A DNA stretch of 32,000 nucleotides from Propionibacterium ruminifibrarum (GCF_900289195.1 NZ_OMOH01000005.1:120001-152000), one strand, 5' to 3'; numbered from the stretch's first letter, positions 10,799 to 30,220 are shown. Notes: generated from the letters alone by a model not told the origin. Program-made: numbers and translations.

Positions 10799-10801
10799 GA
10801 G
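10797..10801 (+). promoter_or_regulatory. Shine-Dalgarno AGGAG for gene4, overlapping the gene3 TAG stop
   Basis: In tAGGAGcgcaaaATG the spacing to ATG 10808 is 6 nt. Confidence 0.65.
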
Positions 10802-10807
10802 CGCAAA

Positions 10808-13800: not shown

Positions 13801-16800
13801 AGCGCTATTCTTCAGCGCCACGACCTTTGACAAGCTGGTGGAGCACCTCGTCAGTGCCGAGGAGCCCAGCGTGCTGCGCTCTTTCAAAGCATCGGGGTCC
13901 TTCGATGCGCCGACTGCGGTCGCAGCGGCTCTTCCCGGAGATAATAGGTCTGCCGATGATGCCTTCGCGATCGTGGGTCTCGATGTCGTGATGCCAGGAT
14001 CTCGTGACATTCACCAGTACTGGAAGCATCTCATCGATTGTGACTGCATGACTTCGCAGGTCCCCTCGGACCGCTGGGACTGGCAAGCTCTCGACGCCGA
14101 TCTGGCGAGGGCCGGGCAGGATCCGGTATCGCATCACGGCGCGTTCATGGCTGAGGTACAAGACTTCGATCGTTCCCTGTTCGGTATCTCGCCGCGCGAG
14201 GCGAAGTTCATGGACCCCCAACAGCGGCTGGTACTCGAATCGATCCACAGGACGATCGAAAGCTCGGGCAGACGCGTCAGCGACATGGCTGGTTCTAGGA
14301 CTGGCATCTTTATCGGGGTCGCCACAGCAGACTACTCGAACGTCCTCCAGGAATCCGCGTTTCCGGTTGATGCCTACACCTCGACGGGAGCCTCGCACAG
14401 CGTCTTGGTGAACCGCGCTTCTTTCCACTTCAACTGGACGGGGCCGTCGGAGCCGATTGACACGGCTTGCTCGAGTTCACTAGTGGCCATTCACCGTGCC
14501 TGTGAAGCCATCCGCAGCGGTACGTGCGATGCTGCTGTTGCCGGTGGGGTCAACGTGATCGTCAGTCCCCTGCTGCACACCGCTTTCTCCCGCGCTGGCA
14601 TGCTGTCGCCGTCTGGCAACTGCCATAGCTTTGATGTGGCAGCTGACGGTTATGTGCGCGGTGAGGGCGTCGGTACGCTGCTGATCAAGCCCTTGTCAGC
14701 AGCCACGTCCGATGGGGATCCAGTTCTGGCGGTGATCCGGGGAACTGCCGTGAACCACGGCGGGCATGCCAGCTCGTTGACGGCCCCCAATCCCAGAATG
14801 CAGGCCGAGGTCATCCGTGACGCATGGCGATCGGGCGATCTCGATTCCTCGGGTATCGGCTACATCGAGGCGCACGGCACCGGGACTAGGTTGGGGGATC
14901 CTGTCGAGATCGATGGTCTGCGTCAGGGCTTCCGCAGTCTGTCGCCGACCGGAGAGTTGTGGTCGGACAAGACCTGTTCGATCGGCACGGTCAAGGCCAA
15001 CATCGGTCACCTCGAAGCAGCGGCCGGTGTGGCGGGAATCGCCAAGGTCGTGATGATGCTGCGTGAAGCGACGATTCCCGGCCATCCGACACTGGGGGAA
15101 CTGAACCCGTATCTGGCCCTGGAGGACTCTCCGTTCGCCATTCAGAGGGAGACGTCTCCGTGGCCGAACCGCGGTGATGGAGAGTCCCGACGCGCTGGGG
15201 TCAGTTCGTTCGGCTTTGGGGGTGCCAACGCCCACATCGCGCTGGAGGAGTTCCGAGCCGAAGGGGTACGACCGTCCGACGGTGCACAGTTCTTGGTTTT
15301 CTCCGCGCGGAGCGAACGAGCGCTCGTCGAGCACATGCGCAATCACGCTAAAGCCCTGAGCGGATCGGTGCCGCCGAATCTTGCGGACGTCGCCAACACA
15401 CTCCGCAATGGGCGGGAGCAGTACTCGCATCGCGCTGTCGTGCTCGTTCAGTCGGGGACTGGCGTAGATCAGGTCCGACGCGCACTGGAGGGGGAGTCCG
15501 TAGTGCCTGGTGTCGACGTCCTCATGTCGGCTACGTTCGGCGACGAGGAAGCGGTAGTGGTGCGGAACCATCCTGGCGCCGTGCTTGAAAGTTCTGAACA
15601 GGTGGTGGCCTTCCTGCGGGGAGAAACCGTCGAATGGAAGATCGCCCAGGATCAATTGACGCGTCGCGCGTGGCTTCCCCCGACCCCCATGGAACGGGTC
15701 CGTTGCTGGGCGACGGACGGGGTTCCGTCGTTCGCTATGACCCTCGGCCTCGGCGTGACAGCGGCAGATAGCTCCGCCGCTCCGCAATCAGTGACGAATT
15801 CCCTTCACCCCATGATAGATGAATGCTCGGACACCGAATCAGGAGCGAAGCGGTTCGCCAAGACCCTGCGCGACACGGAGTTCCTCGTTGCGCACCATGT
15901 CGTCAACGGTCGCAAGGTGCTGCCTGGCACGGCTTACGTCGAATTGGCCCACGCGGTTGGGCGCCAACTGGGGATGTCGCAGGCTTGTACCGTGTCCGGG
16001 CTGGTGTGGGAGCAGATCCTCGAGATGAAGGAACCTGAGATCGAGCTCATCGTTGATGCGACACCGCGTCCTTCACAGCACGGAGCCTTCGACCTCGTCG
16101 TGTCCAGCAGGTCCTCAGTGGGAACCGTTCGGCATTGCTGCTGCGTGGTGAGTGATGGCATCCGCTCCGCACCTATGACGATCGACGTGCCGGGGAGGAT
16201 TCAGGAGGCGGACCGCGAGCTATCTCGTGAGTACTGCTACGGGACCCTGTATCCGCGGATTGGTTTTGACTACGGACCCGGATTTAGGGTCACCAGCGCA
16301 ATCTGGTCGCAGGCTCACGGGGCGGTGACGGAACTGCGACTCCCGGAGGGTATCGCCGGTGTGGACGATCATCGGTTCAAGGTGCACCCCAGCCTGGTGG
16401 ACGGTGCCATTCGGTCGATTGCGGCAATCTCGGAACAGCGCCACAGCTCCACTTACGTCCCCTTCTCCGTGGAGCGTGTCGAGGTCTTTGCGGAGTGTCC
16501 CGCGCATTGCTTCGCCGTTGTGACCATGGGATCCGGCACTAGCAGCAGGCGGATCCAGAGCATGTTGTTCAATGTCTCGATCCTCGACGAGGATGGGAAC
16601 GAGTGCGTACGGTTCAACAACCTCATGGTGCGCGGTCTTCCCCGGGACTATACGAATGATGACCGGGAATTCTTCCTTGTCCCCCAATGGGTCGAGGTAC
16701 CCACCGCTCGCCCAGTGGCTTCGTCGGGTGCAGAACCAGTGCTGCTCATCGGAACGCGCAACGAAGGTTTCGCGTCTTTGTCCCGGGGTCTTGTCGCTGG

Positions 16801-19800
16801 CCATCCGGGGAGCATGGCCGTGCTGGTCGTCCCGCAGGAGTCGCGGGAGCGACGAGCCGACGATGCTGACAAGGGCATTGTGGAGATCGCGCGGGACGCC
16901 AATCTCCTTAATGACGTGGCCAACAGATGCCAAGGGTTGTCCCGTGTTGTCGTTGACCTCAGCGGTGCGGATTCCGCCGAGGATCTGCGCGGCCAGGGAG
17001 GACTTGATCTTCTCGCCGGGGTGGTGAGGGCGGCGGTCAGCTCCGCAGGAGCTAGGGTCCAGGTGACAGTCCTTGCACCGAGGCCTGATTCGGTGACCTC
17101 GCTGACTCCAATGGCCGCCCTGGGTCTTGCGCGATCAATGCCAGCGGTGGTGCCGAATGTGCACTGGACGATCGCAGAAGTGGATGCATCCGTGTCGGCG
17201 GAGGGGGCGCTCCGCCGTTTGGACAGGATGACGAATCTGCCTTCGGGCACTCGGGTGAGGATCATGCGGGATGTCACCCTCATGGAATCGATGCGTGCTC
17301 TCGACGACCACGAACTGGTTGCTGAAGGGACAGGGCTCCCCGATGGAGGTGTATGCGTCCTGTCGGGCGGGATGGGGAAGATTGGGCAGGCATTAGCCAG
17401 AAAGCTCGCTGCCGATCACCACATGAGGATCGCTATCCTGGGACGCTCTCCACTTGACGACCGTCGTGAGCAACTGCTGGCGGAGCTGCGTGACATGGGG
17501 GGCGAGGGGCTCTACATCCCCTGTGACGTGAGCGACCGCCACCGCGTGGCGACGTCTGTGGAGACGATCAGGTCCAGGTGGGGTCAAATAGATGCGGTAA
17601 TCCATGCCGCAGGTGTGATGAGTTCCCGCATGTTCTTGGATGCCCCGCTGACCGACATTGAACGCGTTCTTGCCGCCAAAATCACTGGCGCGGTGAACCT
17701 AGATGCAGAGACGGCACAAGATGACCTGACCCAGTTCATCGTCTTCTCGTCTGTTTCCGCTCTAGTCGGCGACATGGGATCAGGCACCTATGGCGCAGCC
17801 AATGCGCTGCTTGATGGTTTCGCGGAGCAGCGCGAGAACGAGGTCAGGAATGGGCGTCGAAGGGGCGCCACGCTGTGCATCGACTGGCCGATGTGGGCGG
17901 ACGGCGGGATGCCCATCCCCGGCGGGGTCGACTCATTCGCGGAGAACACGGGTATGTCGCTGCTGCGTACCGACTCCGGGATCGACCTGTTCGAATGGAT
18001 CACGAAACTGGGGCGCACCCGAATCGTTCCCCTGCACGGGCGCCCGACGCCGTTGCGTCGTCTGTTCCGTTTCACCCATGCGACACAGCGATCAGCTGGT
18101 ATCGCGGCCCCCGTGAGGGCTGCCAAGCAGCAGGACGACCTGATGGAGGTCTGCATCGATCACCTCAAGCGACTCATCGCAGAGGCCAGTGGTTACGCGG
18201 TCGATGAGTTCGATGAGGATGATGACTTCGAGGAGTTCGGTATCGACTCTCTGATGATTCTGAGCCTCAATGACAAGCTGGCCGTGGACTTCCCGGGACT
18301 GGAACGGACCATCTTCTTCGAGCACAATTCGATCTCGTCACTGGCAGCCCACCTGCTTGAGGAACGCAGAGCAGCGGTTGAGGCGCTTGCCGCACGTCGG
18401 GAAGAGCCAATGATGACCTCTGCCCTGCCGTTCGTTGAAGACGCAGCGCTCGAGTCGACATCTGTCGAGGTGCAGGCTTCGGTTATCGCCCAACCACGAC
18501 GAGCGACGAGCGTGCAGTCTTTCGAAGAGGCAGCGCTGTTCGCGGCAGAGGAACCCATCGCTATTATCGGGATGAACGGAAGATTCCCCGGGGCCGATTC
18601 GATCGCCGAGTTCTGGACGAACCTTTGCGACGGGAAGGACTGCGTCACCGAGATTCCTGCCGATCGATGGGATCTGAAGGTATTCGCGGACAAGCATGCT
18701 CGAGGGGAATCATGCATCTACTCGAAGTGGGGAGCGTTCTTGGATGACGTGGCTGGATTCGATCCCCTGTTATTCAAGATTCCATTCGTCGATGCCAGGC
18801 ATATCGATCCGCAGGAGCGACTGTTCCTTGAGAACGTCTTCGGAACCCTTGAAGAGGCCGGTTACTGCGCCTTTCCGAAGGATCCGGTCAACGTTGGTGT
18901 CTACGTCGGAGTCATGTATGGGCATTACCAATTGTTGGCTCTGGAGCGCACCCTTGCTGGTAAGGAGACAATCACCAGTTCTACCTTCGCCTCAATTGCG
19001 AACCGAACTTCCTATGTCTTCAATTTTACTGGTCCATCGCTGGCAGTTGACACCATGTGTTCATCCTCCTTGACCGCCATCCATCTAGCCTGTGAAGCTC
19101 TTCGTCGGGGTGATTGCGATATGGCCGTGGCCGGTGGTGTGAACGTCACGGTGCATCCGGATAAATACCGGTTCCTGAGTTCACAGCACTTTCTCGCGTC
19201 CGATGGTCGGTGTCACGCCTTCGGTGAGGGTGGCGACGGATATGTGCCGGGTGAGGGCGTCGCATCTCTGCTCCTCAAGCCGCTATCGAAGGCCGAGCGG
19301 GACGGTGACCATATCCATGCGCTAATTCGGGGGACCGCCATCAACCATGGCGGCAAGACAAACGGATACACCGTGACGAATCCAGTGGCCCAGTCGGAGG
19401 CGATTCTCTCGGCGCTAGAGAAATCGGGTGTATCCGCGCGCGACATCAGCTACATCGAGGCCCACGGGACAGGCACTGAACTAGGTGACCCTATTGAGAT
19501 CCGCGGTCTGACGATGGCGTTCTCGCGCAGCACTCATGATCGGGATTTCTGCTGGATCGGTTCGGTCAAGTCCAATATCGGGCATGCCGAGGGTGCGGCC
19601 GGCGTCGTTTCGGTCGTGAAGACCGTAGAACAACTTCGGCATCACGCCGTGGTCCCGTCGCTTCACAGCGAGGTGCTGAACCCGCAGATCGCGTTCGCCG
19701 AGACACCGTTCCGCGTGCCCCACAAGGTGGAGCCCTGGCAGCCCACTGGTACCATTCATGATGGGGTGCACGGCTCTTTGTTGGCAGGCGTGAGTTCGTT

Positions 19801-21607
19801 CGGCGCAGGGGGCGCAAATTCCCATCTCGTCCTTGAGGAGTACCTTCCGGCACCCGGTCGGGAAGCTACCCTGCGGGGACCTGGATTAGTCCCGTTCTCC
19901 GCACGCAATGACGCGGGGATGCGCAGATTGCTGACGGTCTGGGAGACCTTCCTTACTGGGTCGCAGGCGCGATCCGAACCGGGTTCGAGAATGCTGCCCG
20001 CGTTGTGCGGCGCACTGGCCGAGCTGCTCGGCCTGCCCGATGCCGGGGACGTGGATGCGGCACTGGCACTGGACGAGCTGGGCATGGACAGTACCTTGTG
20101 GGACGTCCTGGCGAGGCGCATCGAGGAGTTTTCGGGCCACAGGTGCAACTGGTCCGAGATAGCCGACTTGGATTCGGTTGGAGCAATTGCGGGCCACTTG
20201 GAGGAAAAGGCGATGATTTCGGCTGCTGAAGGGCTTGGTGTTCGCGAGGATCTGCCATCCTGCGGTGACATCGCCTTCACCATGCAGGTGGGCAGGGTCC
20301 ACCAGACGGGGGCCAGAGCAGCGGTGATCGCCGATACCCCTGCGGAGCTTCTGGCAGGTATCCGCCTTCTGCTAGCCGGTGAGACCAGCCCAACCGTCTT
20401 TGCGTCCGTGGCCGGGAGCCGACGTCGTGACGACAAGGCTGTCATCGCCGAGTGGTGCGCTGCACGTGATCTCCCGAAGATTGCGGAGGCCTATGTGAGT
20501 GGGAACTCCGTGGACTGGACGGGTGTGGCCGAAGGGCCCGTGCGCAGAGTCAGTCTTCCGCTGTACCCCTGCGAACGAAATGCCCTGTGGCTGGACCCCG
20601 GTCCTTCTTCGCCGGTCGTCGTCCCTCCGGATCCCACGCCGATTGTCGCCAACACCTCGACACTGGAGGCGGTGGGTTTCCGCATCCATCTCGATCCCGC
20701 GTGGATGGCTGTGTCCGACCACGTCATCCATGGCAGGGCTCTGCTCCCGGGAGCTGGATACCTGCAGTTCGCGAACCAGGTGGCGTCAGCCGCTGCCGAG
20801 CAGCCCGTGACAGTCATCCGCAACGTCGTGTGGCGGGTTCCCGTAGCTGTTCAGGCCGACATGGATCTGGACGTCGAGGTTCGGCGAGAGGGTCGGACCA
20901 TCGACTTGACGGTCCATGCTGGCAACAAGTCCTCGCCGCGTGCCTTCGAGGCGAGCCTCGAGGTGGGAGACCGACAGGCCGCCGAGCGCCACAGTGATGG
21001 GTGGTCGGTCGGCGGTCAGCCTTCCATCGAGCTGGAAGCCCGCGCCATCTATGAGCGATTCGCCCAGGTCGGTATGGCTTACGGGCAGGGCATGCAGACG
21101 GTGCTCAGGGCCCGCGTGAGCGAGGCGGAGCTGGTTGCAGATCTCGAACTGCCCGGTGGATGGCAGCCCAGCCACGGGATGGATCTGCATCCCGCGCTAC
21201 TGGACGGTGCATTCCAGGCCGTGGCGATAACGGGGATGCGGGGGCGGCAGGGGCAGCAGGCCATGATTCCCTTGGGAGCGGACGCTATCACCATCCATGC
21301 AGCAATCCCTGACACGTGCACTGTGCACGTCGTTCCCGCCGTAGCGCAGACCTTCGACGAGGAGCGCTCGCGACACTTGGCCAAGTACGACATTGTCGTC
21401 ATCGACGATTCCGGCCTGATCGTGGTCGAGATCGCCGGCTTCTCGGGAATGACCGTTGAGTCCTCCGGCGGCTCCGTCACGGGACCTGCCCATTCTGGCG
21501 GCGAGGACGACGACGTGCCCACCACGTTGGAGTTGCTGCAGCGCCTCGAGCGTGGAGAGATCCCTCAAAAACTTGTGATCAACGCACTGGACCATGGAGT
21601 GTTCTGA
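10808..21607 (+). CDS. Trans-AT polyketide synthase, 3599 aa: KS-flank-DH(variant)-KR-ACP-KS-DH-KR-ACP-KS-(ACP-like insert)-DH-dock
   Basis: Uninterrupted 10.8 kb ORF in the same reading frame as gene3, 9 nt after its TAG. AGGAG lies 6 nt upstream of the ATG. It contains two KS motif sets, three DH His motifs, two KR Rossmann motifs and two canonical ACPs plus one ACP-like unit. Confidence 0.95.
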   Translation: MVILRPTTSLQSQAERGVLSSHRDQGCTHTVEYPFVVSAKSSQALERSARRLIQWADSGPEGIELAWASYTTCQRRSRFAHRIVVFASSFSGLAEGLRSRMVDGGVPHRVEELPELGPEVVSELRSEDSRLRLEAQALVRGHIESGGTLDLASFFNAPDRVVVALPSYPFERTSLWVEQSAVEPGATPSSLPGVEYPLPGLRGATERRAGQECRVRTLHVDDFWLADHIVAQQHVFPGVGYIEFAVASSGAFALPGPHELRDIVYHSPLVVQGSDDEPELELHGVAAGTGSFRVCTRRSGEETVHCTGTILDGVADPTAFRAHPMNLDIDRMFGELGPRLDREACYAEIRGTGLMLGPSFNAIRTIAFNADRAMAEIVMPEKFVTDHEDFLLHPSIFDGALESVYWLAPAGATSLPVGIDRVGWFSRPLPRCFAYATRSVAGRPGEFSYDVTIYQPDGTRAVAVEGFRFKDLSSGPSHDSDVHSFTFEQVPVALSESPGLEGSLGLVNVTTRMWEALGRTGEVIGVDTPSCSALREGEQQEWMRNEVLPCRDVRAIVIDLTGCGVPGVDEPSAVMAIHDLLASLESHLITRAPTLPQVVLVEPDAPARLTRALRAFALTMTLESPQTKVTVLAADPRDVRFGSRVRRVLLAAPPGFVTWVGDQLMEPRVVPCSSAGTARLEEATGPGVYVITGGMGAIGSLLADRLACRGTNLMLWGRTPLDAERRARIDALAARGGRVEYRVVDLGDAHSVVECLDETERALGPIDGVFHCAGTTHDTMLSVPHVSQSRSVLEPKVAGAWNLRRALEERHARFLVLASSMASVTGNTGQSDYAFANGFMDGLAVDGSNDSRLHTVALDWSVWRDGGIHIEPNVLSMFATVFGITPLTNDQGLASIARSLGGGMQQVIVVAGDRERIKAHLGVAPQSVPPVRRQVSGPGTDLRAWVEQGLRSIIISSIKLSEDDFDPSRTFQEYGYTSLTMVDLANDINARFGTSITPALFFSATTFDKLVEHLVSAEEPSVLRSFKASGSFDAPTAVAAALPGDNRSADDAFAIVGLDVVMPGSRDIHQYWKHLIDCDCMTSQVPSDRWDWQALDADLARAGQDPVSHHGAFMAEVQDFDRSLFGISPREAKFMDPQQRLVLESIHRTIESSGRRVSDMAGSRTGIFIGVATADYSNVLQESAFPVDAYTSTGASHSVLVNRASFHFNWTGPSEPIDTACSSSLVAIHRACEAIRSGTCDAAVAGGVNVIVSPLLHTAFSRAGMLSPSGNCHSFDVAADGYVRGEGVGTLLIKPLSAATSDGDPVLAVIRGTAVNHGGHASSLTAPNPRMQAEVIRDAWRSGDLDSSGIGYIEAHGTGTRLGDPVEIDGLRQGFRSLSPTGELWSDKTCSIGTVKANIGHLEAAAGVAGIAKVVMMLREATIPGHPTLGELNPYLALEDSPFAIQRETSPWPNRGDGESRRAGVSSFGFGGANAHIALEEFRAEGVRPSDGAQFLVFSARSERALVEHMRNHAKALSGSVPPNLADVANTLRNGREQYSHRAVVLVQSGTGVDQVRRALEGESVVPGVDVLMSATFGDEEAVVVRNHPGAVLESSEQVVAFLRGETVEWKIAQDQLTRRAWLPPTPMERVRCWATDGVPSFAMTLGLGVTAADSSAAPQSVTNSLHPMIDECSDTESGAKRFAKTLRDTEFLVAHHVVNGRKVLPGTAYVELAHAVGRQLGMSQACTVSGLVWEQILEMKEPEIELIVDATPRPSQHGAFDLVVSSRSSVGTVRHCCCVVSDGIRSAPMTIDVPGRIQEADRELSREYCYGTLYPRIGFDYGPGFRVTSAIWSQAHGAVTELRLPEGIAGVDDHRFKVHPSLVDGAIRSIAAISEQRHSSTYVPFSVERVEVFAECPAHCFAVVTMGSGTSSRRIQSMLFNVSILDEDGNECVRFNNLMVRGLPRDYTNDDREFFLVPQWVEVPTARPVASSGAEPVLLIGTRNEGFASLSRGLVAGHPGSMAVLVVPQESRERRADDADKGIVEIARDANLLNDVANRCQGLSRVVVDLSGADSAEDLRGQGGLDLLAGVVRAAVSSAGARVQVTVLAPRPDSVTSLTPMAALGLARSMPAVVPNVHWTIAEVDASVSAEGALRRLDRMTNLPSGTRVRIMRDVTLMESMRALDDHELVAEGTGLPDGGVCVLSGGMGKIGQALARKLAADHHMRIAILGRSPLDDRREQLLAELRDMGGEGLYIPCDVSDRHRVATSVETIRSRWGQIDAVIHAAGVMSSRMFLDAPLTDIERVLAAKITGAVNLDAETAQDDLTQFIVFSSVSALVGDMGSGTYGAANALLDGFAEQRENEVRNGRRRGATLCIDWPMWADGGMPIPGGVDSFAENTGMSLLRTDSGIDLFEWITKLGRTRIVPLHGRPTPLRRLFRFTHATQRSAGIAAPVRAAKQQDDLMEVCIDHLKRLIAEASGYAVDEFDEDDDFEEFGIDSLMILSLNDKLAVDFPGLERTIFFEHNSISSLAAHLLEERRAAVEALAARREEPMMTSALPFVEDAALESTSVEVQASVIAQPRRATSVQSFEEAALFAAEEPIAIIGMNGRFPGADSIAEFWTNLCDGKDCVTEIPADRWDLKVFADKHARGESCIYSKWGAFLDDVAGFDPLLFKIPFVDARHIDPQERLFLENVFGTLEEAGYCAFPKDPVNVGVYVGVMYGHYQLLALERTLAGKETITSSTFASIANRTSYVFNFTGPSLAVDTMCSSSLTAIHLACEALRRGDCDMAVAGGVNVTVHPDKYRFLSSQHFLASDGRCHAFGEGGDGYVPGEGVASLLLKPLSKAERDGDHIHALIRGTAINHGGKTNGYTVTNPVAQSEAILSALEKSGVSARDISYIEAHGTGTELGDPIEIRGLTMAFSRSTHDRDFCWIGSVKSNIGHAEGAAGVVSVVKTVEQLRHHAVVPSLHSEVLNPQIAFAETPFRVPHKVEPWQPTGTIHDGVHGSLLAGVSSFGAGGANSHLVLEEYLPAPGREATLRGPGLVPFSARNDAGMRRLLTVWETFLTGSQARSEPGSRMLPALCGALAELLGLPDAGDVDAALALDELGMDSTLWDVLARRIEEFSGHRCNWSEIADLDSVGAIAGHLEEKAMISAAEGLGVREDLPSCGDIAFTMQVGRVHQTGARAAVIADTPAELLAGIRLLLAGETSPTVFASVAGSRRRDDKAVIAEWCAARDLPKIAEAYVSGNSVDWTGVAEGPVRRVSLPLYPCERNALWLDPGPSSPVVVPPDPTPIVANTSTLEAVGFRIHLDPAWMAVSDHVIHGRALLPGAGYLQFANQVASAAAEQPVTVIRNVVWRVPVAVQADMDLDVEVRREGRTIDLTVHAGNKSSPRAFEASLEVGDRQAAERHSDGWSVGGQPSIELEARAIYERFAQVGMAYGQGMQTVLRARVSEAELVADLELPGGWQPSHGMDLHPALLDGAFQAVAITGMRGRQGQQAMIPLGADAITIHAAIPDTCTVHVVPAVAQTFDEERSRHLAKYDIVVIDDSGLIVVEIAGFSGMTVESSGGSVTGPAHSGGEDDDVPTTLELLQRLERGEIPQKLVINALDHGVF
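10880..11343 (+). other. KS flanking subdomain belonging to KS3 but encoded on the next protein
   Basis: YPFVVSAKSSQALERSARRLIQW, ASYTTCQRRSRFAHRIVVFASS, ends LPSYPFERTSLWVEQ. This is the same layout as the segments that follow the other seven KS domains. Confidence 0.75.
11390..12230 (+). other. DH-like domain with variant motifs (DH1 of gene4)
   Basis: LADHIVAQQHVFPG (His codon 11489-11491; Gln where HxxxG has Gly; Pro kept). LMLGPSFNAI has Leu in place of the YGP Tyr. HPSIFDGALES has DxxxE instead of DxxxQ/H. Confidence 0.7.
12250..13570 (+). other. KR domain (boundaries approximate)
   Basis: VYVITGGMGAIGSLL from nt 12869; HCAGTTHDTML; SSMASVTGNTGQSDYAFAN. Confidence 0.85.
13631..13852 (+). 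other. ACP domain with atypical GYTS attachment motif
   Basis: FQEYGYTSLTMVDLANDINARFG; Ser codon 13739-13741. Thr replaces the usual Asp before the Ser. Confidence 0.75.
13955..15253 (+). other. KS4 ketosynthase domain
   Basis: DDAFAIVGLDVVMPG; DTACSSS (Cys codon 14468-14470); EAHGTGTRLGDPVE; KANIGHLEAAAG; GGANAHIALEEF. Confidence 0.95.
15254..15720 (+). other. KS C-terminal flanking subdomain (no AT)
   Basis: FLVFSARSERALVEHMRNH, LADVANTLRNGREQYSHR, ends PPTPMERVRCW. Confidence 0.7.
15803..16650 (+). other. DH domain (DH2 of gene4)
   Basis: HVVNGRKVLPG (HxxxGxxxxP, His codon 15896-15898); YGPGFRV; HPSLVDGAIRS (Asp kept, Arg at the Q/H position). Confidence 0.8.
16660..18050 (+). other. 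KR domain (boundaries approximate)
   Basis: VCVLSGGMGKIGQAL from nt 17351; IHAAGVMSSRMF; SSVSALVGDMGSGTYGAAN. Confidence 0.85.
18140..18358 (+). other. ACP domain
   Basis: FEEFGIDSLMILSLNDKLAVDF; Ser codon 18248-18250. Confidence 0.9.
18548..19843 (+). other. KS5 ketosynthase domain
   Basis: EEPIAIIGMNGRFPG; DTMCSSS (Cys codon 19058-19060); EAHGTGTELGDPIE; KSNIGHAEGAAG; GGANSHLVLEEY. Confidence 0.95.
19844..20600 (+). other. KS flanking subdomain of KS5, enlarged by an internal insertion
   Basis: LVPFSARNDAGMRRLLTVWETFL ... (insert) ... CGDIAFTMQVGRVHQTGARAAVIADTPAELLAGI ... LPLYPCERNALW. The two conserved blocks are 8-30 aa apart after the other seven KS domains but about 105 aa apart here. 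Confidence 0.75.
19994..20209 (+). other. ACP-like (carrier-protein-like) unit inserted inside the KS5 flanking subdomain
   Basis: LPALCGALAELLGLPDAGDVDAALALDELGMDSTLWDVLARRIEEFSGHRCNWSEIADLDSVGAIAGHLEEK follows the carrier-protein layout. That layout is helix, LG-x-P, D-x-x-x-x-F/L-x-x-LG-x-DS, helix, then a helix ending in hydrophobic-x-x-hydrophobic. The candidate Ser codon is 20090-20092. Confidence 0.5.
20650..21463 (+). other. DH domain (DH3, C-terminal domain of gene4)
   Basis: SDHVIHGRALLPG (HxxxGxxxxP, His codon 20720-20722); YGQGMQTV; HPALLDGAFQ (DxxxQ). Confidence 0.82.
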
Positions 21608-27600: not shown

Positions 27601-30131
27601 TTCGCAGGGCTGGCATCAACGCCTTCGGTGCTGGCGGCTCCAATGCCCATGTAGTTATCGAATCCTTCGATGAACCCGAATCGGCACGCCCGGCCGCAGG
27701 TGACGAACTCATCGTCCTGTCGGCGCGCGAGGCAGAACGTCTGCCGGTCGTTGCTGACGAACTGGCATATGCCCTCGAGCGTGATCCGGACGTCGACCTA
27801 CAACGGGTTGCCCACACGCTCAGGGTCGGGCGGGAGCCATTGGCCAGCAGGTTGGCTTTCGTTGCGCATGATGCTGACCATGCTGTTGCCGTGCTGAAGG
27901 CGATCTCTTCGGGGCGCGCCGTACCCGAAGTGATGACCTCGGAGGATCGCGATCCCACTGCGATGATAGTAGGTCAGGATCGGCTCAGTGCAGCCGCAGC
28001 GGCGTGGGTTTGCGGTGATCCGGTGGAATGGCCGGCCTGGGATGGTCGCTTTCCGTGCCGTGTGTCGCTCCCGGGGTACCCGTTCAGGCACGCCTCCTTC
28101 GTGCAGGAACGCACCATCGTGCGCCCAGCCTCCGCCGAGGAAGCCCGACGTGCGGAGGTGACCGTCAGGAACCGCCACGAGGACTTCCGCATCGATGAGG
28201 AACTGCGGCGCGTCGATGCGGTGAGCGCCAGCTACATGAAGGACTGGGAGCGGGTCACTCCCGAGCTCCAGCAGGCAGGCCGATGGTCGGAGCGACTGGT
28301 GGTCGTCTGTGCCCAGGAGTCCCACGACAGAACCGCGATTGCGGAGGCCCTTCGCGACGAAGGCGCCCGAGTCCTGGAAATCCATCCGGACGCGGCTCGG
28401 CATGGTGAGAAGGTCCCGGGCGATGTGACGGATGTGATCTGGATGCCCCAGAATGTCAATCCCTGTCACGACGATCCTTGGAGCCGCGAGGAACTGGAGT
28501 CGCACGACCGCAGTTTGGTTGACTTCCTCGCACTGCTCAAAACGATCGCCGCACGGGGCTCCGGTGCTCCGGTGTGCAACGTGCACATTGTCACCGATCG
28601 TGTGCAAGATCTTGACGGCGGCTGCGTACGAATGTGGGGCGCCGGGTCGAGCGCCATGCTCAGGTGCGTCACCCGTGAGCATGTGAACATCCGTGGCGTC
28701 GCCATCGACATGGATCTGTCATCCGGGGTCGAACCCGCGGACCTCGTCACATGGGTCGGGAGTATCCGCTGCACCACCGAGGTGGACGAGCTGATCGTGC
28801 GCGACGCACTGTGCCGACGACTCAGACTCTCACGTGTTGAGGTCCCGGCAGCGCGGGGCGATCTTGCAGCACCTGACAGCGTGCACGTCATCTTCGGAGG
28901 ACTCGGATCGCTCGGGTTCGAACTCGCCTGTCATTTGGTCAAGAACTGCGGCGCACGTGTGTGTCTCGTCGGGCGTTCTCCTATCGATCATGACAGGCGC
29001 CAACTGATGGACCGCCTGGGCGGCGAGGGCTCACGGGTGATGTACCGCAGGGCCGATGCCACCGATGAGTCTGCGGTCCGTAGTCTGCTCGACGACGTGA
29101 TGTCTGCATGGGGCCGGATCGATTGTCTAGTTCACACTGCCATGGTGTTCGGTGAGTCCACCGTAGAGGATCTCACCGACGAAGAGTTGCTTGACATGCT
29201 TCGTCCCAAGACGCGTATGGTCCAGGCGATCCTTCGGGCCAGCAGGGATATGGAAATTGAGCGGTTTATCGCCTTCTCCTCGTCGCAGGGCTTCTTGGGG
29301 GCGCCTCGCCGGGCTCATTACGCGGCTGCGTGTGCTGGCTTGATGAGTTTCCTCGATTCCATGCGTTCGCAGTTGAATATGACCATTCATCGGATCGACT
29401 GGGGTTACTGGGGCGCGGTGCGTGGTCGCCGCATTAGCCGTGAATATGCGGCGTTCCTCGACGCCCATAACATCAGGCCGATCTCTGTGCAGGAGGGAAT
29501 GGATGTGGTGGCTCGGGTGGTGACCAACGAAATGCCGGCGCTCACCGTCCTTACCGTTGGCGATTTGGTCCGTTCGACGATGTCGATCCTTGATAACGCG
29601 CAGCCCCGGGCGTGGAATCGACAGCGGGCAGCCAAGGCCATTCACAACGCCCCCGCACGACCGATGCCCGAGACTGATGAAGAGGCCCATGAAGGCTCGG
29701 CCCAGACGTTCGAGGAGGTCCGCTCGGCCCTTATGAGCGACCTGGCCCAGACGATCTCGTCCTCGGCATCCGAGATCGACCCGTCCCAGTCCTTCATGGA
29801 CATTGGCTTGGACTCGATCTCGGGGCTCAAATTCGTCCGCAATGTCAACTCGCACCGGGGTTATCGCCTCCCGGACACGGTCGTCTTCGAGTACCCGAGC
29901 ATCGACGCCCTCGCTTGGCACATCATTGAGGCGCCGCCGATCATCGAATCGGTTGGGCCAGCGACCGACGAAACCGTGTGCGAGAAACAGATCCAAACTC
30001 CGGACGTCGCGCCACCTGCCAACTCGGCAGCGATGGACGAGGCAGAAGAGGATTTCCTTACCTTGTTGAGGAAACTCGAGTCTAACCAGATCACCCCCGA
30101 ACAGGCCATCGGCAAGGGAGAAGTCAAGTGA
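21609..30131 (+). CDS. Trans-AT polyketide synthase, ~2840 aa: dock-KR-ACP-KS-DH(degenerate)-ACP-KS-KR-ACP-dock
   Basis: Uninterrupted 8.5 kb ORF. The track starts it at ATG 21594, a 14-nt overlap with gene4. I prefer ATG 21609, which is 1 nt after the gene4 TGA, has GGAG 21596-21599 nine nt upstream, and gives MTRQEIVAAVAAGRM... in register with the other N-terminal docking motifs. It has two KS motif sets, two KR motifs and three ACP sites. Confidence 0.93.
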   Translation: MTRQEIVAAVAAGRMTAAEAYRLLGEEATPAGASDEPREDLLHGVRIARRCWLPLAAQLPAADTGATVIITDGTDSQSMMLNELVAGEVLLELPESAADPVSSDAFDTYWTEHVQDRVRGCDHLVIVFRDPTPSMANRDTVLLFRVFQVLAHLRRTTSLAIDVVVDRQDEEALAWAMACDSFLACVRLERPLLDTRVVVVETQASLSRVVALGAELRSRGVAARLARTDASGSALLTAQVTKPGQFVEDEFLEEVDFLVTGGTGGLARVLAGGLLKRGAGHVTLCGRRGPEDLDADLVQLIERNRDRVCYVRWDPADDEDLVGLACDAVRANHRLVILHAAGVRNDAFLVKQNLKDFLTTAVPKVSMTRVVMEAARSIPNSTVVLFSSVTSLFGNIGQCAYGFANGHMDGCAVAARESSGGELRVLSVNWPLWDEGGMQLDEGARRMMSATTGMEPLPTAVGLEFLIRALYDGWQGDEALLYGDLDKLAGLLGANEAPPDRAVAREAHAPAMGAPAVPPRSCSSISAHELHRRACSFLVEVVSGVTEIPQSDIDIHAAFDQFGLDSIVAMRIGDELEANFSGLSKTLLFEYQNITDLASYFVDAHYDELLTVLGIGGSSLDDMVEQPPAAPTPSVKADRPEVQHPAVAIIGIAGRYPGATSLDQFWENLVHGVDSVREIPAERWDNEQIYDTRKGQLGRTNSRWGGFLDGIDQFDPRLFRINAREAMIMDPQERIFLETAWTAVQDAGYKVSDLHGCRVGVFVGAMYSEYQMLPACVRGRNLPHTSLHSSIANRVSYYLDLNGPSVAMDTMCSSSLVAIHYGARSILDGEATMAIAGGVNLSLTPDKYLFLAQGNFLSSDGRCRAFGEGGDGYVPGEGVGAVLLKSLEHALADGDHIYGVIRGSAVNHDGKTSGYTVPSPQAQADVISAALEQSGLEPARVSYVEAHGTGTSLGDPIEISGLKCAYGGASLGRIRAIGSVKSNIGHTESAAGIASLTKVLLQMKHHELVPSLHATRLNPMIDFDDAGFTVQRELGAWHSDGAPRVAGISCFGAGGTNCHMIVEEPAATPVRTMDPERVFVPFSSTSDEQLRALLEKYVTFLASDDARAMTLVDIAHTMTSGRDRMNAAVIIFASSIEELRERIMGFLTTGHTDANVLYRPSVEQTDDVGFLLEGEQGDDMVAHLIEQRSMEQLARVWLLGRPVDSRRLFPMARRVSLPTHVFDHDSYWLPGDGSAATESALCGVLDRNESDFDGIRFTSFIDTASEVKSAYIAPDAIVDPMVAPQLAHDGFQQLMGDEPDSFENLRLIVAPSGPAPCSFTVRADRGGAMTLLEVTDGDGAVVFQTAAGTTAESGSTATSRGGEPVLSWPGDMPDPGSIPLVTVLRACMAACTTDQSGLLGVGAVRIFSSFPIIVVRQMPALDGGDGIDLEFGSATGDVVALATNVVVTPFTLQDASMAVDDGGGQEAPVDRPPDVRAFILEVASELFGVPSSGIDEDMPFDEYGIDSVLIGKFVEAIRTRFPSMPETSFFDHTTVRSLTTYLSSLEDTEPVVAAIPAAPTAVTRSRPSVPMLASVLPDGAGGNDDEPIAIIGMSGVFPEAADLGEYWDNLRAGRESISLVPADRWDYRAWFDPETDIPTPGKIYAPWGGFIDDPYGFDHAFFNITPADARVIDPQERMLLETIWHTLEDAGRTRSDLMASGGDDLAENVGVFVGSTNHTYEFWGVEEWARGNAVATNSSPWSLANRLSYFFNFSGPSMPVDTACSSGLTALHLAVGALRRRECTSAVVAGVNLYLHPMKYVAMCQMKMLSPTGHLSAFGADADGFVPGEGVAAVLLKPISRALADGDRVRAVIRASELNHGGRSNGYTVPNGVAQTRLLQRAWRRCGVSPSTIGYLEMHGTGTRLGDPIEVEAATRAMRDATDRQGFCAMGSVKSNIGHLESCAGLAALVKVVQQMEHGVILPTINAHSVNPRLKLEHSPFVLAHEEMTWQPDERSGVRRAGINAFGAGGSNAHVVIESFDEPESARPAAGDELIVLSAREAERLPVVADELAYALERDPDVDLQRVAHTLRVGREPLASRLAFVAHDADHAVAVLKAISSGRAVPEVMTSEDRDPTAMIVGQDRLSAAAAAWVCGDPVEWPAWDGRFPCRVSLPGYPFRHASFVQERTIVRPASAEEARRAEVTVRNRHEDFRIDEELRRVDAVSASYMKDWERVTPELQQAGRWSERLVVVCAQESHDRTAIAEALRDEGARVLEIHPDAARHGEKVPGDVTDVIWMPQNVNPCHDDPWSREELESHDRSLVDFLALLKTIAARGSGAPVCNVHIVTDRVQDLDGGCVRMWGAGSSAMLRCVTREHVNIRGVAIDMDLSSGVEPADLVTWVGSIRCTTEVDELIVRDALCRRLRLSRVEVPAARGDLAAPDSVHVIFGGLGSLGFELACHLVKNCGARVCLVGRSPIDHDRRQLMDRLGGEGSRVMYRRADATDESAVRSLLDDVMSAWGRIDCLVHTAMVFGESTVEDLTDEELLDMLRPKTRMVQAILRASRDMEIERFIAFSSSQGFLGAPRRAHYAAACAGLMSFLDSMRSQLNMTIHRIDWGYWGAVRGRRISREYAAFLDAHNIRPISVQEGMDVVARVVTNEMPALTVLTVGDLVRSTMSILDNAQPRAWNRQRAAKAIHNAPARPMPETDEEAHEGSAQTFEEVRSALMSDLAQTISSSASEIDPSQSFMDIGLDSISGLKFVRNVNSHRGYRLPDTVVFEYPSIDALAWHIIEAPPIIESVGPATDETVCEKQIQTPDVAPPANSAAMDEAEEDFLTLLRKLESNQITPEQAIGKGEVK
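21710..23090 (+). other. KR domain at the N-terminus of gene5; completes the module begun by KS5-DH3 (boundaries approximate)
   Basis: FLVTGGTGGLARVL from nt 22377; LHAAGVRNDAFL; SSVTSLFGNIGQCAYGFAN. Confidence 0.85.
23193..23420 (+). other. ACP domain
   Basis: FDQFGLDSIVAMRIGDELEANF; Ser codon 23304-23306. Confidence 0.9.
23538..24803 (+). other. KS6 ketosynthase domain
   Basis: HPAVAIIGIAGRYPG; DTMCSSS (Cys codon 24042-24044); EAHGTGTSLGDPIE; KSNIGHTESAAG; GGTNCHMIVEEP. Confidence 0.95.
24804..25310 (+). other. KS C-terminal flanking subdomain (no AT)
   Basis: VFVPFSSTSDEQLRALLEKY, LVDIAHTMTSGRDRMNAAVIIFASS, ends LPTHVFDHDSYW. Confidence 0.7.
25328..25970 (+). other. Degenerate DH-like region without catalytic His or Asp
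   Basis: It opens like a trans-AT DH (LCGVLDRNESDFDGIRFTSFIDTASE). APDAIVDPMVAPQLAHDGFQQL sits where xDHxVxGxxxLPG is expected. There is no YGP motif, and IPLVTVLRACMAAC sits where HPxLLDxxxQ is expected. At about 215 aa it is shorter than the other three DH domains. Confidence 0.45.
26031..26243 (+). other. ACP domain
   Basis: FDEYGIDSVLIGKFVEAIRTRF; Ser codon 26127-26129. Confidence 0.9.
26361..27668 (+). other. KS7 ketosynthase domain
   Basis: DEPIAIIGMSGVFPEA; DTACSSG (Cys codon 26898-26900); EMHGTGTRLGDPIE; KSNIGHLESCAG; GGSNAHVVIESF. Confidence 0.95.
27669..28107 (+). other. KS C-terminal flanking subdomain (no AT)
   Basis: ELIVLSAREAERLPVVADEL, LQRVAHTLRVGREPLASRLAFVAHD, ends LPGYPFRHASF. 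Confidence 0.7.
28110..29600 (+). other. KR domain (boundaries approximate)
   Basis: VHVIFGGLGSLGFEL from nt 28881; VHTAMVFGESTV; SSSQGFLGAPRRAHYAAAC. Confidence 0.8.
29709..29927 (+). other. ACP domain (sequence type resembles the tandem beta-branching ACPs)
   Basis: FMDIGLDSISGLKFVRNVNSHRGYRLPDTVVFEYP; Ser codon 29814-29816. Confidence 0.88.
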
Positions 30132-30220
30132 GTACGGATTTTCGTCATGAGCTGATGGACATGGTGTATAGAGGAGAGATCAGCGCTGAACAGGCTGCTG
30201 CTATGTTGCCACGGGCCGGG
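30045..30220 (+). other. Putative docking pair at the gene5/gene6 junction
   Basis: Tail DFLTLLRKLESNQITPEQAIGKGE and head RHELMDMVYRGEISAEQAAAMLPRAG. Confidence 0.55.
30116..30120 (+). promoter_or_regulatory. Shine-Dalgarno-like GGGAG for gene6
   Basis: Lies 7 nt upstream of GTG 30128, which overlaps the gene5 TGA (GTGA). Confidence 0.55.

What the first reader, a model, noticed from the sequence alone, without database searches (positions are those of the whole stretch)
19844..20600. Carrier-protein-like unit embedded inside the flanking subdomain of KS5
After every KS here, two conserved blocks occur: (hydrophobic)xxSA(K/R)xxxxL... and xx(V/I)AxTLxxGR.... They are 8-30 aa apart after seven of the KS domains. 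After KS5 they are about 105 aa apart. The extra segment (19994-20209) reads LPALCGALAELLGLPDAGDVDAALALDELGMDSTLWDVLARRIEEFSGHRCNWSEIADLDSVGAIAGHLEEK. This has the full layout of an ACP/PCP, including a G-x-D-S site (Ser codon 20090-20092) at the expected distance from the LGLP turn. I know of no description of a carrier domain nested within the KS flanking subdomain. It would give module KS5-DH | KR-ACP a second, topologically unusual pantetheine arm. Alternatively it could be a structural relic or a docking platform for a trans-acting enzyme.
Basis: seen in the sequence. Interest (0 to 1): 0.62.

Follow-up and report, generated by a model that had tools for sequence, protein, structure and literature searches.

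The report
Carrier-protein-like domain nested in ketosynthase flank
A real acyl-carrier-protein-fold domain sits inside the flanking subdomain of one ketosynthase of this trans-AT polyketide synthase. It belongs to a rare but taxonomically widespread family of nested carrier look-alikes that almost always lack the cofactor serine, so here it is more likely a structural or docking piece than a second working carrier.

Summary
After KS5 of gene4, about 100 extra residues lie between the first and second helix of the flanking subdomain (FSD).

Evidence that the insert is a carrier-protein fold:
- It hits Pfam PP-binding over the full model (31 bits, cut-off 20.8).
- It folds as a four-helix carrier bundle. 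All top 50 PDB matches are ACP/PCP, rmsd 1.1-3.9 A.
- Ser3095 (codon 20090-20092) is the first residue of helix II.

The insert is not unique. The same insert at the same site occurs in dozens of unrelated trans-AT synthases from many phyla.
- 60 of 62 inserts hit PP-binding.
- About 1% of KS domains carry one in a less biased sample.
- The serine position is usually Pro, Ala or Gln. G-x-D-S occurs only in this window's small orthologue clade, and one of its five members has Phe.

The window insert scores better on a profile of Ser-less inserts than on a profile of true ACPs. Its helix II departs from the ACP consensus. It is under purifying selection (dN/dS about 0.2).

Best reading: a conserved, non-shuttling pseudo-carrier that acts through protein contacts. 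A true second pantetheine arm remains possible (about 0.15-0.2).

This scan had already noted the Ser-less version on other DNA. I found no paper that describes it as a nested domain.

The parts
18527..19837 (+). KS5 core of gene4 (residues 2574-3010)
   Evidence: Pfam ketoacyl-synt and Ketoacyl-synt_C. In-session KS HMM scores 871.8 bits. The AF2 model matches trans-AT KS structures 4z37, 4tkt and 7zm9.
19883..19957 (+). Flanking subdomain, first part: strand beta1 (LVPFSAR) and helix alpha1 (residues about 3026-3050)
   Evidence: AF2 model E457-463 and H466-481. Block 1 is conserved after all KS domains of the window.
19958..19990 (+). N-terminal tether of the insert (residues 3051-3061, about 11 aa)
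   Evidence: Unstructured in the AF2 model (residues 482-492). pLDDT is below 50 at 487-489.
19991..20227 (+). Nested carrier-protein-like domain (residues 3062-3140): helix I 3062-3074, helix II 3095-3109, helix III 3115-3118, helix IV 3124-3140
   Evidence: Pfam PP-binding 31 bits, full model. AF2 pLDDT 79-96 within the full KS-FSD model and 85 when modelled alone. All top 50 Foldseek PDB hits are ACP/PCP. dN/dS 0.19-0.25.
20090..20092 (+). Ser3095 codon (AGT) in G-M-D-S, first residue of helix II
   Evidence: Orthologues carry TCG or TCC (Ser) or TTT (Phe). The same position in 57 other inserts is mostly Pro, Ala or Gln.
20228..20260 (+). C-terminal tether of the insert (residues 3141-3151, about 11 aa)
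   Evidence: AF2 model residues 572-582 have no secondary structure.
20261..20590 (+). Flanking subdomain, second part: helix alpha2 (CGDIAFTMQVGR), beta2, alpha3, a short LINKS-equivalent helical segment, and LPLYPCERNALW
   Evidence: Pfam CurL-like_PKS_C and RhiE-like_linker from about model position 30 onward. Aligns with the flanks of 7zma, 4z37 and 7zmc. AF2 elements H583-593, E600-606, H609-620, H641-650, H653-661.
20633..21481 (+). DH3 (residues 3276-3558), last domain of gene4. KR-ACP of the same module open gene5 (21594-)
   Evidence: In-session DH HMM scores 364 bits. Gene5 has KR at residues 236-475 and ACP at 541-617.

Best explanation
The 19991-20227 segment encodes a complete acyl-carrier-protein-fold domain spliced into the loop between helix alpha1 and helix alpha2 of the KS5 flanking subdomain. 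It is held by two tethers of about 11 residues each. It is one member of a rare family of such nested carrier look-alikes: roughly 1% of trans-AT KS domains, but present in many phyla. That family descends from PKS ACPs and has almost everywhere lost the phosphopantetheine serine.

Shown here: the position, the fold, the family membership, and purifying selection.

Inferred: the family works without a cofactor, so the domain most likely does not shuttle intermediates. It more likely acts as a fixed protein-protein interaction surface on the outer face of the FSD. My preferred version is an ACP mimic that offers a landing site for proteins that recognise ACPs, such as the trans-AT or another trans-acting enzyme of the pathway. 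The next-best version is a brace in the packing of neighbouring modules. In this reading the Ser of the window's clade is an allowed residue at a helix N-terminal position, not a required cofactor site. It could still be modified adventitiously.
For: Position and fold:
- PP-binding hit, with the flank profiles interrupted.
- AF2 model of KS5+FSD has pLDDT 91.1 and pTM 0.89, with a canonical helix I / long loop / helix II / short helix III / helix IV layout.
- The isolated domain model matches only carrier proteins, rmsd 1.1-3.9 A.

Family:
- The distance from KS end to the TLQxGR block is bimodal: 380 KS at 50-79 aa and 62 at 120-189 aa.
- The 62 inserts align as one family, and 60 of 62 hit PP-binding.
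- A profile of them finds only true ACPs in the PDB, best hit the mupirocin ACP didomain 2l22 at 4e-20.
- A further 32 examples lie in named genomes (Sorangium, Paenibacillus, Melghirimyces, Magnetospirillum, Streptomyces, Corallococcus and others), none with G-x-D-S.

Serine is dispensable:
- The Ser column reads P 21, A 7, S 6, Q 5, L 5, R 4, I 4.
- Clade member P0006 has Phe (TTT) in an intact gene under purifying selection.

Affinity:
- The window insert scores 36.2 bits on the Ser-less-insert HMM against 20.4 bits on an HMM of 473 true ACPs. Every true ACP of the window scores the other way round.
- In the tree the clade lies among Ser-less inserts, away from the true-ACP cluster.

Helix II is atypical: position +1 is Thr or Phe, against I/V/L/M in 90% of true ACPs, and +4 is Asp.

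Not a relic: dN/dS is 0.19-0.25. True ACPs give 0.13-0.28 and DH3 or flank4 give 0.41-0.46.

The module already has its own ACP on gene5.
Against: - The window's clade keeps a textbook G-x-D-S in 4 of 5 members. The Ser codon belongs to different codon families (AGT in the window, TCG or TCC in the orthologues). That needs at least two nucleotide changes and hints at selection for Ser or Thr-like residues.
- The genome encodes several PPTase-family genes, one about 25 kb upstream on the same contig, so modification is possible.
- No interaction partner has been identified. No association with module type or with the length of the LINKS-bearing segment points to a specific role.
- I could not inspect model coordinates, so the orientation of helix II relative to KS and FSD is unknown.
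- The Phe variant rests on one metagenome assembly.
Confidence: 0.6

Rival explanations
1. In this clade the nested domain is a working holo-carrier. Ser3095 would be phosphopantetheinylated, and the arm, anchored on the FSD beside KS5, would take part in chemistry. For example it might receive the extender unit or hold the intermediate in a module whose regular ACP lies on the next polypeptide.
For: - Canonical G-M-D-S with the Ser at the N-terminus of helix II.
- PP-binding score above the gathering threshold.
- Ser kept in 4 of 5 clade members despite a switch between AGY and TCN codons.
- The domain is under purifying selection.
- The module is split, KS5-DH | KR-ACP.
- PPTase genes are present.
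Against: - The family as a whole functions without Ser.
- Sister P0006 has Phe.
- Positions +1, +4 and +5 of helix II depart from the consensus seen in 473 true ACPs.
- The insert is closer to the Ser-less insert profile than to the true-ACP profile.
- Both ends are tethered by only about 11 residues, which limits travel to active sites.
- One Ser-bearing lineage among about 55 independent ones is what background Ser frequency predicts.
Confidence: 0.18
2. The domain is a structural brace for higher-order packing of the assembly line, through lateral or vertical contacts between modules. It would add to or modify the LINKS-mediated filament contacts of the FSD and would have no ACP-mimic docking role.
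For: - The only documented role of trans-AT FSDs is lateral association through LINKS motifs (PMC9491710; preprint 10.1101/2023.02.11.528132).
- The insert sits in the same subdomain.
- One synthase (P0023) carries three insert-bearing KS domains with closely related inserts.
Against: - The insert is at a different site (the alpha1-alpha2 loop) from LINKS, which sits at the AT-equivalent site after alpha3.
- The LINKS-bearing segment is of normal length in insert-bearing FSDs: median 94.5 against 95 aa, p = 0.96.
- Most assembly lines have the insert on only one KS, which is an odd pattern for a lattice element.
Confidence: 0.17
3. The domain is a decaying remnant of a past recombination or duplication and has no present function.
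For: - It evolves faster than the true ACPs of the same protein: 41-44% against 59-64% identity between the window and its orthologues.
- The cofactor serine is lost in most lineages.
Against: - dN/dS is 0.19-0.25, lower than DH3 and flank4.
- The full four-helix fold is predicted with high confidence.
- The insert persists at the same site across many phyla.
Confidence: 0.05

Closest known systems
Canonical ACP domains of trans-AT and cis-AT PKSs (Pfam PP-binding PF00550; for example the mupirocin ACP didomain 2l22, VirA ACP5b 4ca3, salinomycin module 9 ACP 7vrs_C)
   Same: Same fold and detectable sequence homology. The same G-x-D-S motif sits at the start of helix II in this clade.
   Different: It is nested inside the KS flanking subdomain, not strung between domains on long linkers. 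Helix II is non-consensus. It is closer to the Ser-less inserts than to true ACPs. Its relatives at this site lack the serine.
Ser-less carrier-like inserts at the same FSD site in other trans-AT PKSs. These were seen here in 57 representative proteins and 32 named-genome loci, and were noted earlier by this scan (e1-2381512, e1-4234776). The 'inactive ACP9a' annotated in the phthoxazolin Ptx PKS (PMC5764310) may be one, but its position was not checked.
   Same: Same insertion point, same length class, same fold family, and higher profile score.
   Different: The window's clade carries a canonical G-x-D-S in 4 of 5 members, which the others do not.
LINKS motif of trans-AT KS flanking subdomains (Gay et al. 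2016, as described in PMC9491710 and 10.1101/2023.02.11.528132)
   Same: It is also a helical element carried by the FSD and is proposed to mediate protein-protein contacts.
   Different: LINKS is a three-helix motif of about 36 residues at the AT-equivalent site after alpha3. This insert is a four-helix ACP homologue of about 80 residues in the alpha1-alpha2 loop. KS5 also keeps a LINKS-position segment of normal length.
DHD docking domains at split KS | DH junctions (gladiolin GbnD4/D5; review PMC9113145)
   Same: Both concern trans-AT modules in which KS and the reductive domains are arranged unusually.
   Different: DHD-bearing KS domains lack an FSD, and the DHD is a disordered C-terminal tail. 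Here the FSD is complete, DH3 is fused to it, and the split lies between DH and KR.

Membership tests
Carrier protein (PP-binding, PF00550) fold family | Profile match above the curated threshold over the whole domain | tested here: met
   31.1 bits against a 20.8 cut-off, model positions 2-67 of 67. 60 of 62 related inserts also match.
Carrier protein (PP-binding, PF00550) fold family | Four-helix bundle: helix I, long loop, helix II, short helix III, helix IV | tested here: met
   AF2 helices 493-505, 526-540, 546-549 and 555-571 in the full model. The same layout appears in the isolated model. All top 50 PDB matches are ACP/PCP. This is a prediction, not an experimental structure.
Carrier protein (PP-binding, PF00550) fold family | Ser in (D/E/N/T)-S at the N-terminus of helix II | tested here: met
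   G-M-D-S with Ser3095 as the first residue of helix II.
Functional (holo) ACP of a PKS module | Helix II recognition-helix consensus: +1 I/V/L/M, +4 hydrophobic or Thr, +5 E/Q | tested here: not met
   The window has +1 Thr, +4 Asp, +5 Val. Orthologues have +1 Phe, +4 Asp, +5 Gly. In 473 true ACPs from the same protein set, +1 is I/V/L/M in 90%.
Functional (holo) ACP of a PKS module | Serine conserved among orthologues | tested here: inconclusive
   4 of 5 clade members have Ser and one has Phe. The Ser codon family differs between the window (AGT) and the orthologues (TCN).
Functional (holo) ACP of a PKS module | Phosphopantetheinylation of the serine | not testable with these tools
   This needs MS on expressed protein. 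PPTase-family genes are present in the genome.
Nested Ser-less ACP-like insert of trans-AT KS flanking subdomains (not formally described in the literature I could search) | Inserted between FSD block 1 (xxSAK/R plus alpha1) and block 2 (xxAYTLQxGR) | tested here: met
Nested Ser-less ACP-like insert of trans-AT KS flanking subdomains (not formally described in the literature I could search) | Sequence closer to other inserts than to true ACPs | tested here: met
   36.2 against 20.4 bits whole-sequence. 27.1 against 11.4 bits at domain level, the only carrier-like unit of the window with that ordering.
Nested Ser-less ACP-like insert of trans-AT KS flanking subdomains (not formally described in the literature I could search) | No serine at the cofactor position | tested here: not met
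   The window has Ser. It is therefore filed as a Ser-bearing variant of the family.
LINKS motif | Three-helix motif of about 36 residues at the AT-equivalent site of the FSD, after alpha3 | tested here: not met
   The insert lies upstream of alpha2 and is an ACP homologue.
DHD docking domain | Disordered C-terminal tail on a KS that lacks an FSD, at a KS | DH subunit junction | tested here: not met
   The FSD is complete and DH3 is covalently attached.

The most novel reading that the evidence does not exclude
In this Propionibacteriaceae clade the nested domain has kept or regained its serine and is a true holo-carrier. That would be a phosphopantetheine arm anchored on the KS flanking subdomain itself, serving KS5 in a module whose regular ACP sits on the next polypeptide. 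It would be the first carrier domain known to operate from inside another domain of a PKS.
Probability: 0.15. Interest if true: 0.8.

Novelty: new variant of a known kind. Interest (0 to 1): 0.5.

Why it matters
The flanking subdomain is the least understood part of trans-AT ketosynthases. It has been linked to lateral assembly through LINKS motifs, and it lies next to the preferred recombination and engineering site.

A conserved ACP homologue spliced into it, under purifying selection and recurring across phyla, points to a protein-contact role for a cofactor-less carrier fold. That role is not in current models of these assembly lines. It also explains stray 'inactive ACP' calls after KS domains in cluster annotations, which can mislead module and product prediction.

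The window's clade is the natural test case. It is the only one found here that still has a modifiable serine, so one MS experiment and one point mutant could tell whether the fold can still act as a carrier.

Tried and rejected
- LINKS motif: rejected. It has a different site, size and fold, and the LINKS-bearing segment has the same length with or without the insert.
- DHD docking domain: rejected.
- Link to the split KS-DH | KR-ACP module or to any module type: none found. The next domain after insert-bearing KS is DH 32, KR 15, ACP 13, KS 8, END 7, against a background of 224/86/63/27/51.
- A solved structure containing the insert: none.
  - Profiles of the insert alone and of block1+insert+block2 hit only separate ACPs or plain flanks.
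  - Whole-model Foldseek hits are all about 100 residues shorter.
  - 4oqj_A looked like a candidate, but its ACP-like match lies after the flank, at 725-811.
- More orthologues to count Ser:
  - The metagenome scan found none.
  - A second homologue search sized for fragments found none.
  - An order-wide genome search found only one further genome, near-identical to P0004.
- Phylogeny to decide whether Ser is ancestral or regained: too few columns, unresolved.
- Literature: nine full-text searches found no description of a nested ACP-like domain. The LINKS paper itself (PMC4738151) is not held.
- Correction: my 'ACP2' comparator covered only the C-terminal half of ACP2 plus linker. One search gives the corrected values.

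Full report
**What is in the sequence**

The window carries six co-directional trans-AT PKS genes. Gene4 (10808-21607, 3599 aa) reads DH-KR-ACP-KS4-DH-KR-ACP-KS5-DH. Gene5 opens with KR-ACP, so the KS5 module is split between DH and KR.

After each of the eight KS domains there is a strand-helix block (hydrophobic-x-x-S-A-K/R ...). In seven of them a xxAxTLxxGR-type block follows roughly 25-45 residues later. KS2 has about 20 extra residues there, and KS8 has a degenerate second block. After KS5 the blocks LVPFSAR (19886-19906) and CGDIAFTMQVGR (20261-20296) are about 118 residues apart.

The Ser codon is AGT at 20090-20092.

**Is the extra segment a carrier-protein unit? Yes.**

- The excised 83 residues hit Pfam PP-binding over the whole model (31.1 bits, E 2.9e-7, cut-off 20.8).
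- The rest of the flank matches the CurL-like and RhiE-like linker profiles only from about position 30 onward. The carrier-like unit therefore interrupts the flanking subdomain.
- I built an AlphaFold2 model of KS5 plus flank (706 aa) on an alignment of 59 KS-flank sequences from the window and fetched loci. It has mean pLDDT 91.1 and pTM 0.89.
- The insert forms helices 493-505, 526-540, 546-549 and 555-571 in model numbering (model residue 1 is gene4 residue 2570). Block pLDDT is 79-96. Unstructured tethers of about 11 residues lie on each side (482-492 and 572-582).
- Ser3095 is model residue 526, the first residue of helix II, as in real ACPs.
- Modelled alone, the insert has pLDDT 85 and the same layout. 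All 50 best PDB matches are acyl or peptidyl carrier proteins, rmsd 1.1-3.9 A for nearly all of them, mostly below 2.2 A, over about 73 columns.
- The whole model superposes on solved trans-AT KS+FSD structures (4z37, 4tkt, 7zm9, 4ope, 4na1 and others), all about 100 residues shorter.

**It is not unique**

Orthologues of gene4 have the same insert at the same place: P0004 (near-identical to a genome of another genus in the same family), P0005, P0006 and the fragment P0007.

A scan of 1.84 billion representative proteins with the KS-end-to-flank query returned many unrelated trans-AT synthases that align over the full 266 residues.

In the 152 proteins retrieved:
- The distance from KS end to the TLQxGR block is sharply bimodal: 380 KS at 50-79 residues and 62 at 120-189.
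- The 62 inserts align as one family with the ACP layout.
- 60 of 62 hit PP-binding at E <= 0.01, best 7e-15.
- Their profile finds only bona fide ACPs in the PDB, best hit the mupirocin ACP didomain 2l22 at 4e-20.

Another 32 examples lie in named genomes, including Sorangium cellulosum So ce56 and So ce1128, Paenibacillus, Melghirimyces, Magnetospirillum, Streptomyces, Corallococcus and Sulfidibacter.

These samples are enriched by the query. Among neighbouring KS domains in the same loci, which were not selected by the query, only 1 of 124 carries the insert. The feature is therefore rare per KS (order of 1%) but taxonomically widespread.

No PDB chain has it.

**The serine**

In the 62 aligned inserts the Gly at -3 (about 90%) and the Asp at -1 (47 of 62) are kept. 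The cofactor position itself reads P 21, A 7, S 6, Q 5, L 5, R 4, I 4, T 3 and others.

- Four of the six Ser belong to the window's own clade.
- The other two sit in E-S contexts, one of them without the Gly.
- None of the 32 named-genome inserts has G-x-D-S.
- Inside the clade, P0006 has Phe (TTT). The window has AGT, and L081 and L082 have TCG and TCC.

The family as a whole therefore works without a phosphopantetheine. One Ser-bearing lineage among roughly 55 independent ones is about what background Ser frequency predicts. The switch between AGY and TCN codons hints at some preference for Ser in this clade, while the Phe variant shows Ser is not indispensable.

**Is the window insert a true ACP that landed there, or a member of the insert family?**

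- An HMM of the 57 other inserts scores the clade at 30-41 bits (window 36.2). An HMM of 473 true ACPs from the same proteins scores it at 13-34 bits (window 20.4).
- The window's real ACPs score the opposite way, 79 against 45 and 44 against 9.
- Across the window, the KS5 insert is the only carrier-like unit that prefers the insert profile.
- In a weakly resolved tree the clade sits among Ser-less inserts, and 45 of 47 true ACPs cluster apart.
- Helix II departs from the ACP consensus. Position +1 is Thr (Phe in orthologues), against I/V/L/M in 90% of true ACPs. Position +4 is Asp, where true ACPs have T/V/M/L/I.

**Is it a relic? No.**

Between orthologues the insert has dN/dS 0.19-0.25.
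- The two true ACPs give 0.13-0.28.
- KS5 gives 0.10-0.18.
- DH3 and the KS4 flank give 0.41-0.46.

One search corrects a mis-set ACP2 comparator used. The insert evolves faster than the true ACPs (41-44% against 59-64% identity to the window) but is clearly constrained.

**What it is not**

The LINKS motif is a three-helix element of about 36 residues at the AT-equivalent site late in the FSD. The present insert lies earlier, in the alpha1-alpha2 loop. KS5 also retains a LINKS-position segment. The length of that segment does not differ between insert-bearing and plain FSDs (median 94.5 against 95, p = 0.96).

DHD docking domains belong to KS domains that lack an FSD.

The insert shows no preference for a downstream domain or for subunit ends.

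**Most likely mechanism**

- Shown: an ACP-fold domain, homologous to PKS ACPs, nested in the FSD on short tethers. It is conserved under purifying selection and belongs to a family that has dispensed with the cofactor serine.
- Inferred: it does not shuttle intermediates. It acts through its surface.
  - I favour an ACP-mimicking landing pad for ACP-recognising partners, the trans-AT or another trans-acting enzyme.
  - Second choice is a brace in inter-module packing.
- I put about 0.6 on the non-carrier reading overall and about 0.15-0.2 on a true second pantetheine arm in this clade.
- The genome has PPTase-family genes, one about 25 kb upstream on the same contig, so adventitious modification is also conceivable.

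**Known or new?**

Nine full-text searches found no description of a carrier-like domain nested in the FSD.

One cluster paper annotates a Ser-less 'inactive ACP9a' in a KS0-containing module of the phthoxazolin PKS (PMC5764310). It may be the same thing seen without noticing its position. I could not check the sequence.

This scan had already flagged the Ser-less version in other genomes (e1-2381512, e1-4234776). The present case adds the only clade found so far with a canonical G-x-D-S. I class it as a new variant of a known kind (a carrier fold in a new topological context) and give it moderate interest.

**Limits**

- Model coordinates could not be inspected.
- The Phe variant rests on a single assembly.
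- The frequency estimates come from small or biased samples.
- The organism names in earlier notes (a rumen Propionibacterium; Brooklawnia for the relative) were not verified here.

Noticed in passing
window 6905-7090 (gene2, after KS2): The KS2 flank has about 20 extra residues between block 1 and block 2 (ARLARAVQRARDDIRGRKAGAADLMVAEAGWMSALQYTLAVGR). This is a smaller expansion of the same alpha1-alpha2 loop, with no carrier-like signal.
   Followed up: no
window 13727-13747 (gene4 ACP1): The true ACP1 of gene4 has G-Y-T-S, with Thr instead of Asp before the serine. That variant is seen in only about 2% of 473 true ACPs sampled.
   Followed up: no
window 30128-31999 (gene6, after KS8): The KS8 flank lacks a recognisable xxAxTLxxGR block (it reads LLQLCIQSLVTRTQ). 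Its flanking subdomain is therefore degenerate.
   Followed up: no
window 10741-10860 (gene3/gene4 junction): KS3 ends gene3, and its flanking subdomain (FVVSAKSSQALERSARRL...) opens gene4. This KS is separated from its own flank by a gene boundary.
   Followed up: partly
own genome, contig C27:94681-94989 (-), about 25 kb upstream of the window; also C27:259850-260077, C19:225613-225882, C20:48772-49044: There are four PPTase-family (PF01648) matches in the genome. The 278-aa frame at C27:94.7 kb may belong to the same PKS island.
   Followed up: no
protein P0023 (4992 aa, metagenomic): One synthase carries three insert-bearing KS domains. Their inserts are closely related to each other (GLDPVQ in all three; SH-aLRT 98), which suggests module duplication or concerted evolution of the nested domain.
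   Followed up: no
PDB 4oqj_A (845 aa, 'PKS'): Its region from KS end to the end of the flank aligned as one stretch of 270 residues (439-708), about 85 more than usual. Its ACP-like match, however, lies after the flank at 725-811. The nature of the extra flank residues was not resolved.
   Followed up: partly
literature: PMC5764310 (phthoxazolin Ptx PKS, module 9): A Ser-less 'inactive ACP9a' is annotated beside an active ACP in a KS0-DH-ACP bimodule. It may be a published sighting of the nested insert that was not recognised as such.
   Followed up: partly
window 19756-20445 (- strand): A 229-aa open frame on the opposite strand overlaps the finding. It is most likely a by-product of high G+C coding DNA.
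   Followed up: no
protein P0073 = ALD83702.1 'tAT polyketide synthase' of Sorangium cellulosum; locus L006 (Sorangium sp. So ce1128): A deposited, named Sorangium trans-AT PKS carries a Ser-less insert (GFDA/GFDV) strong enough to be picked up by an HMM built from the window's two true ACPs. It could be a convenient characterised system for experiments.
   Followed up: no
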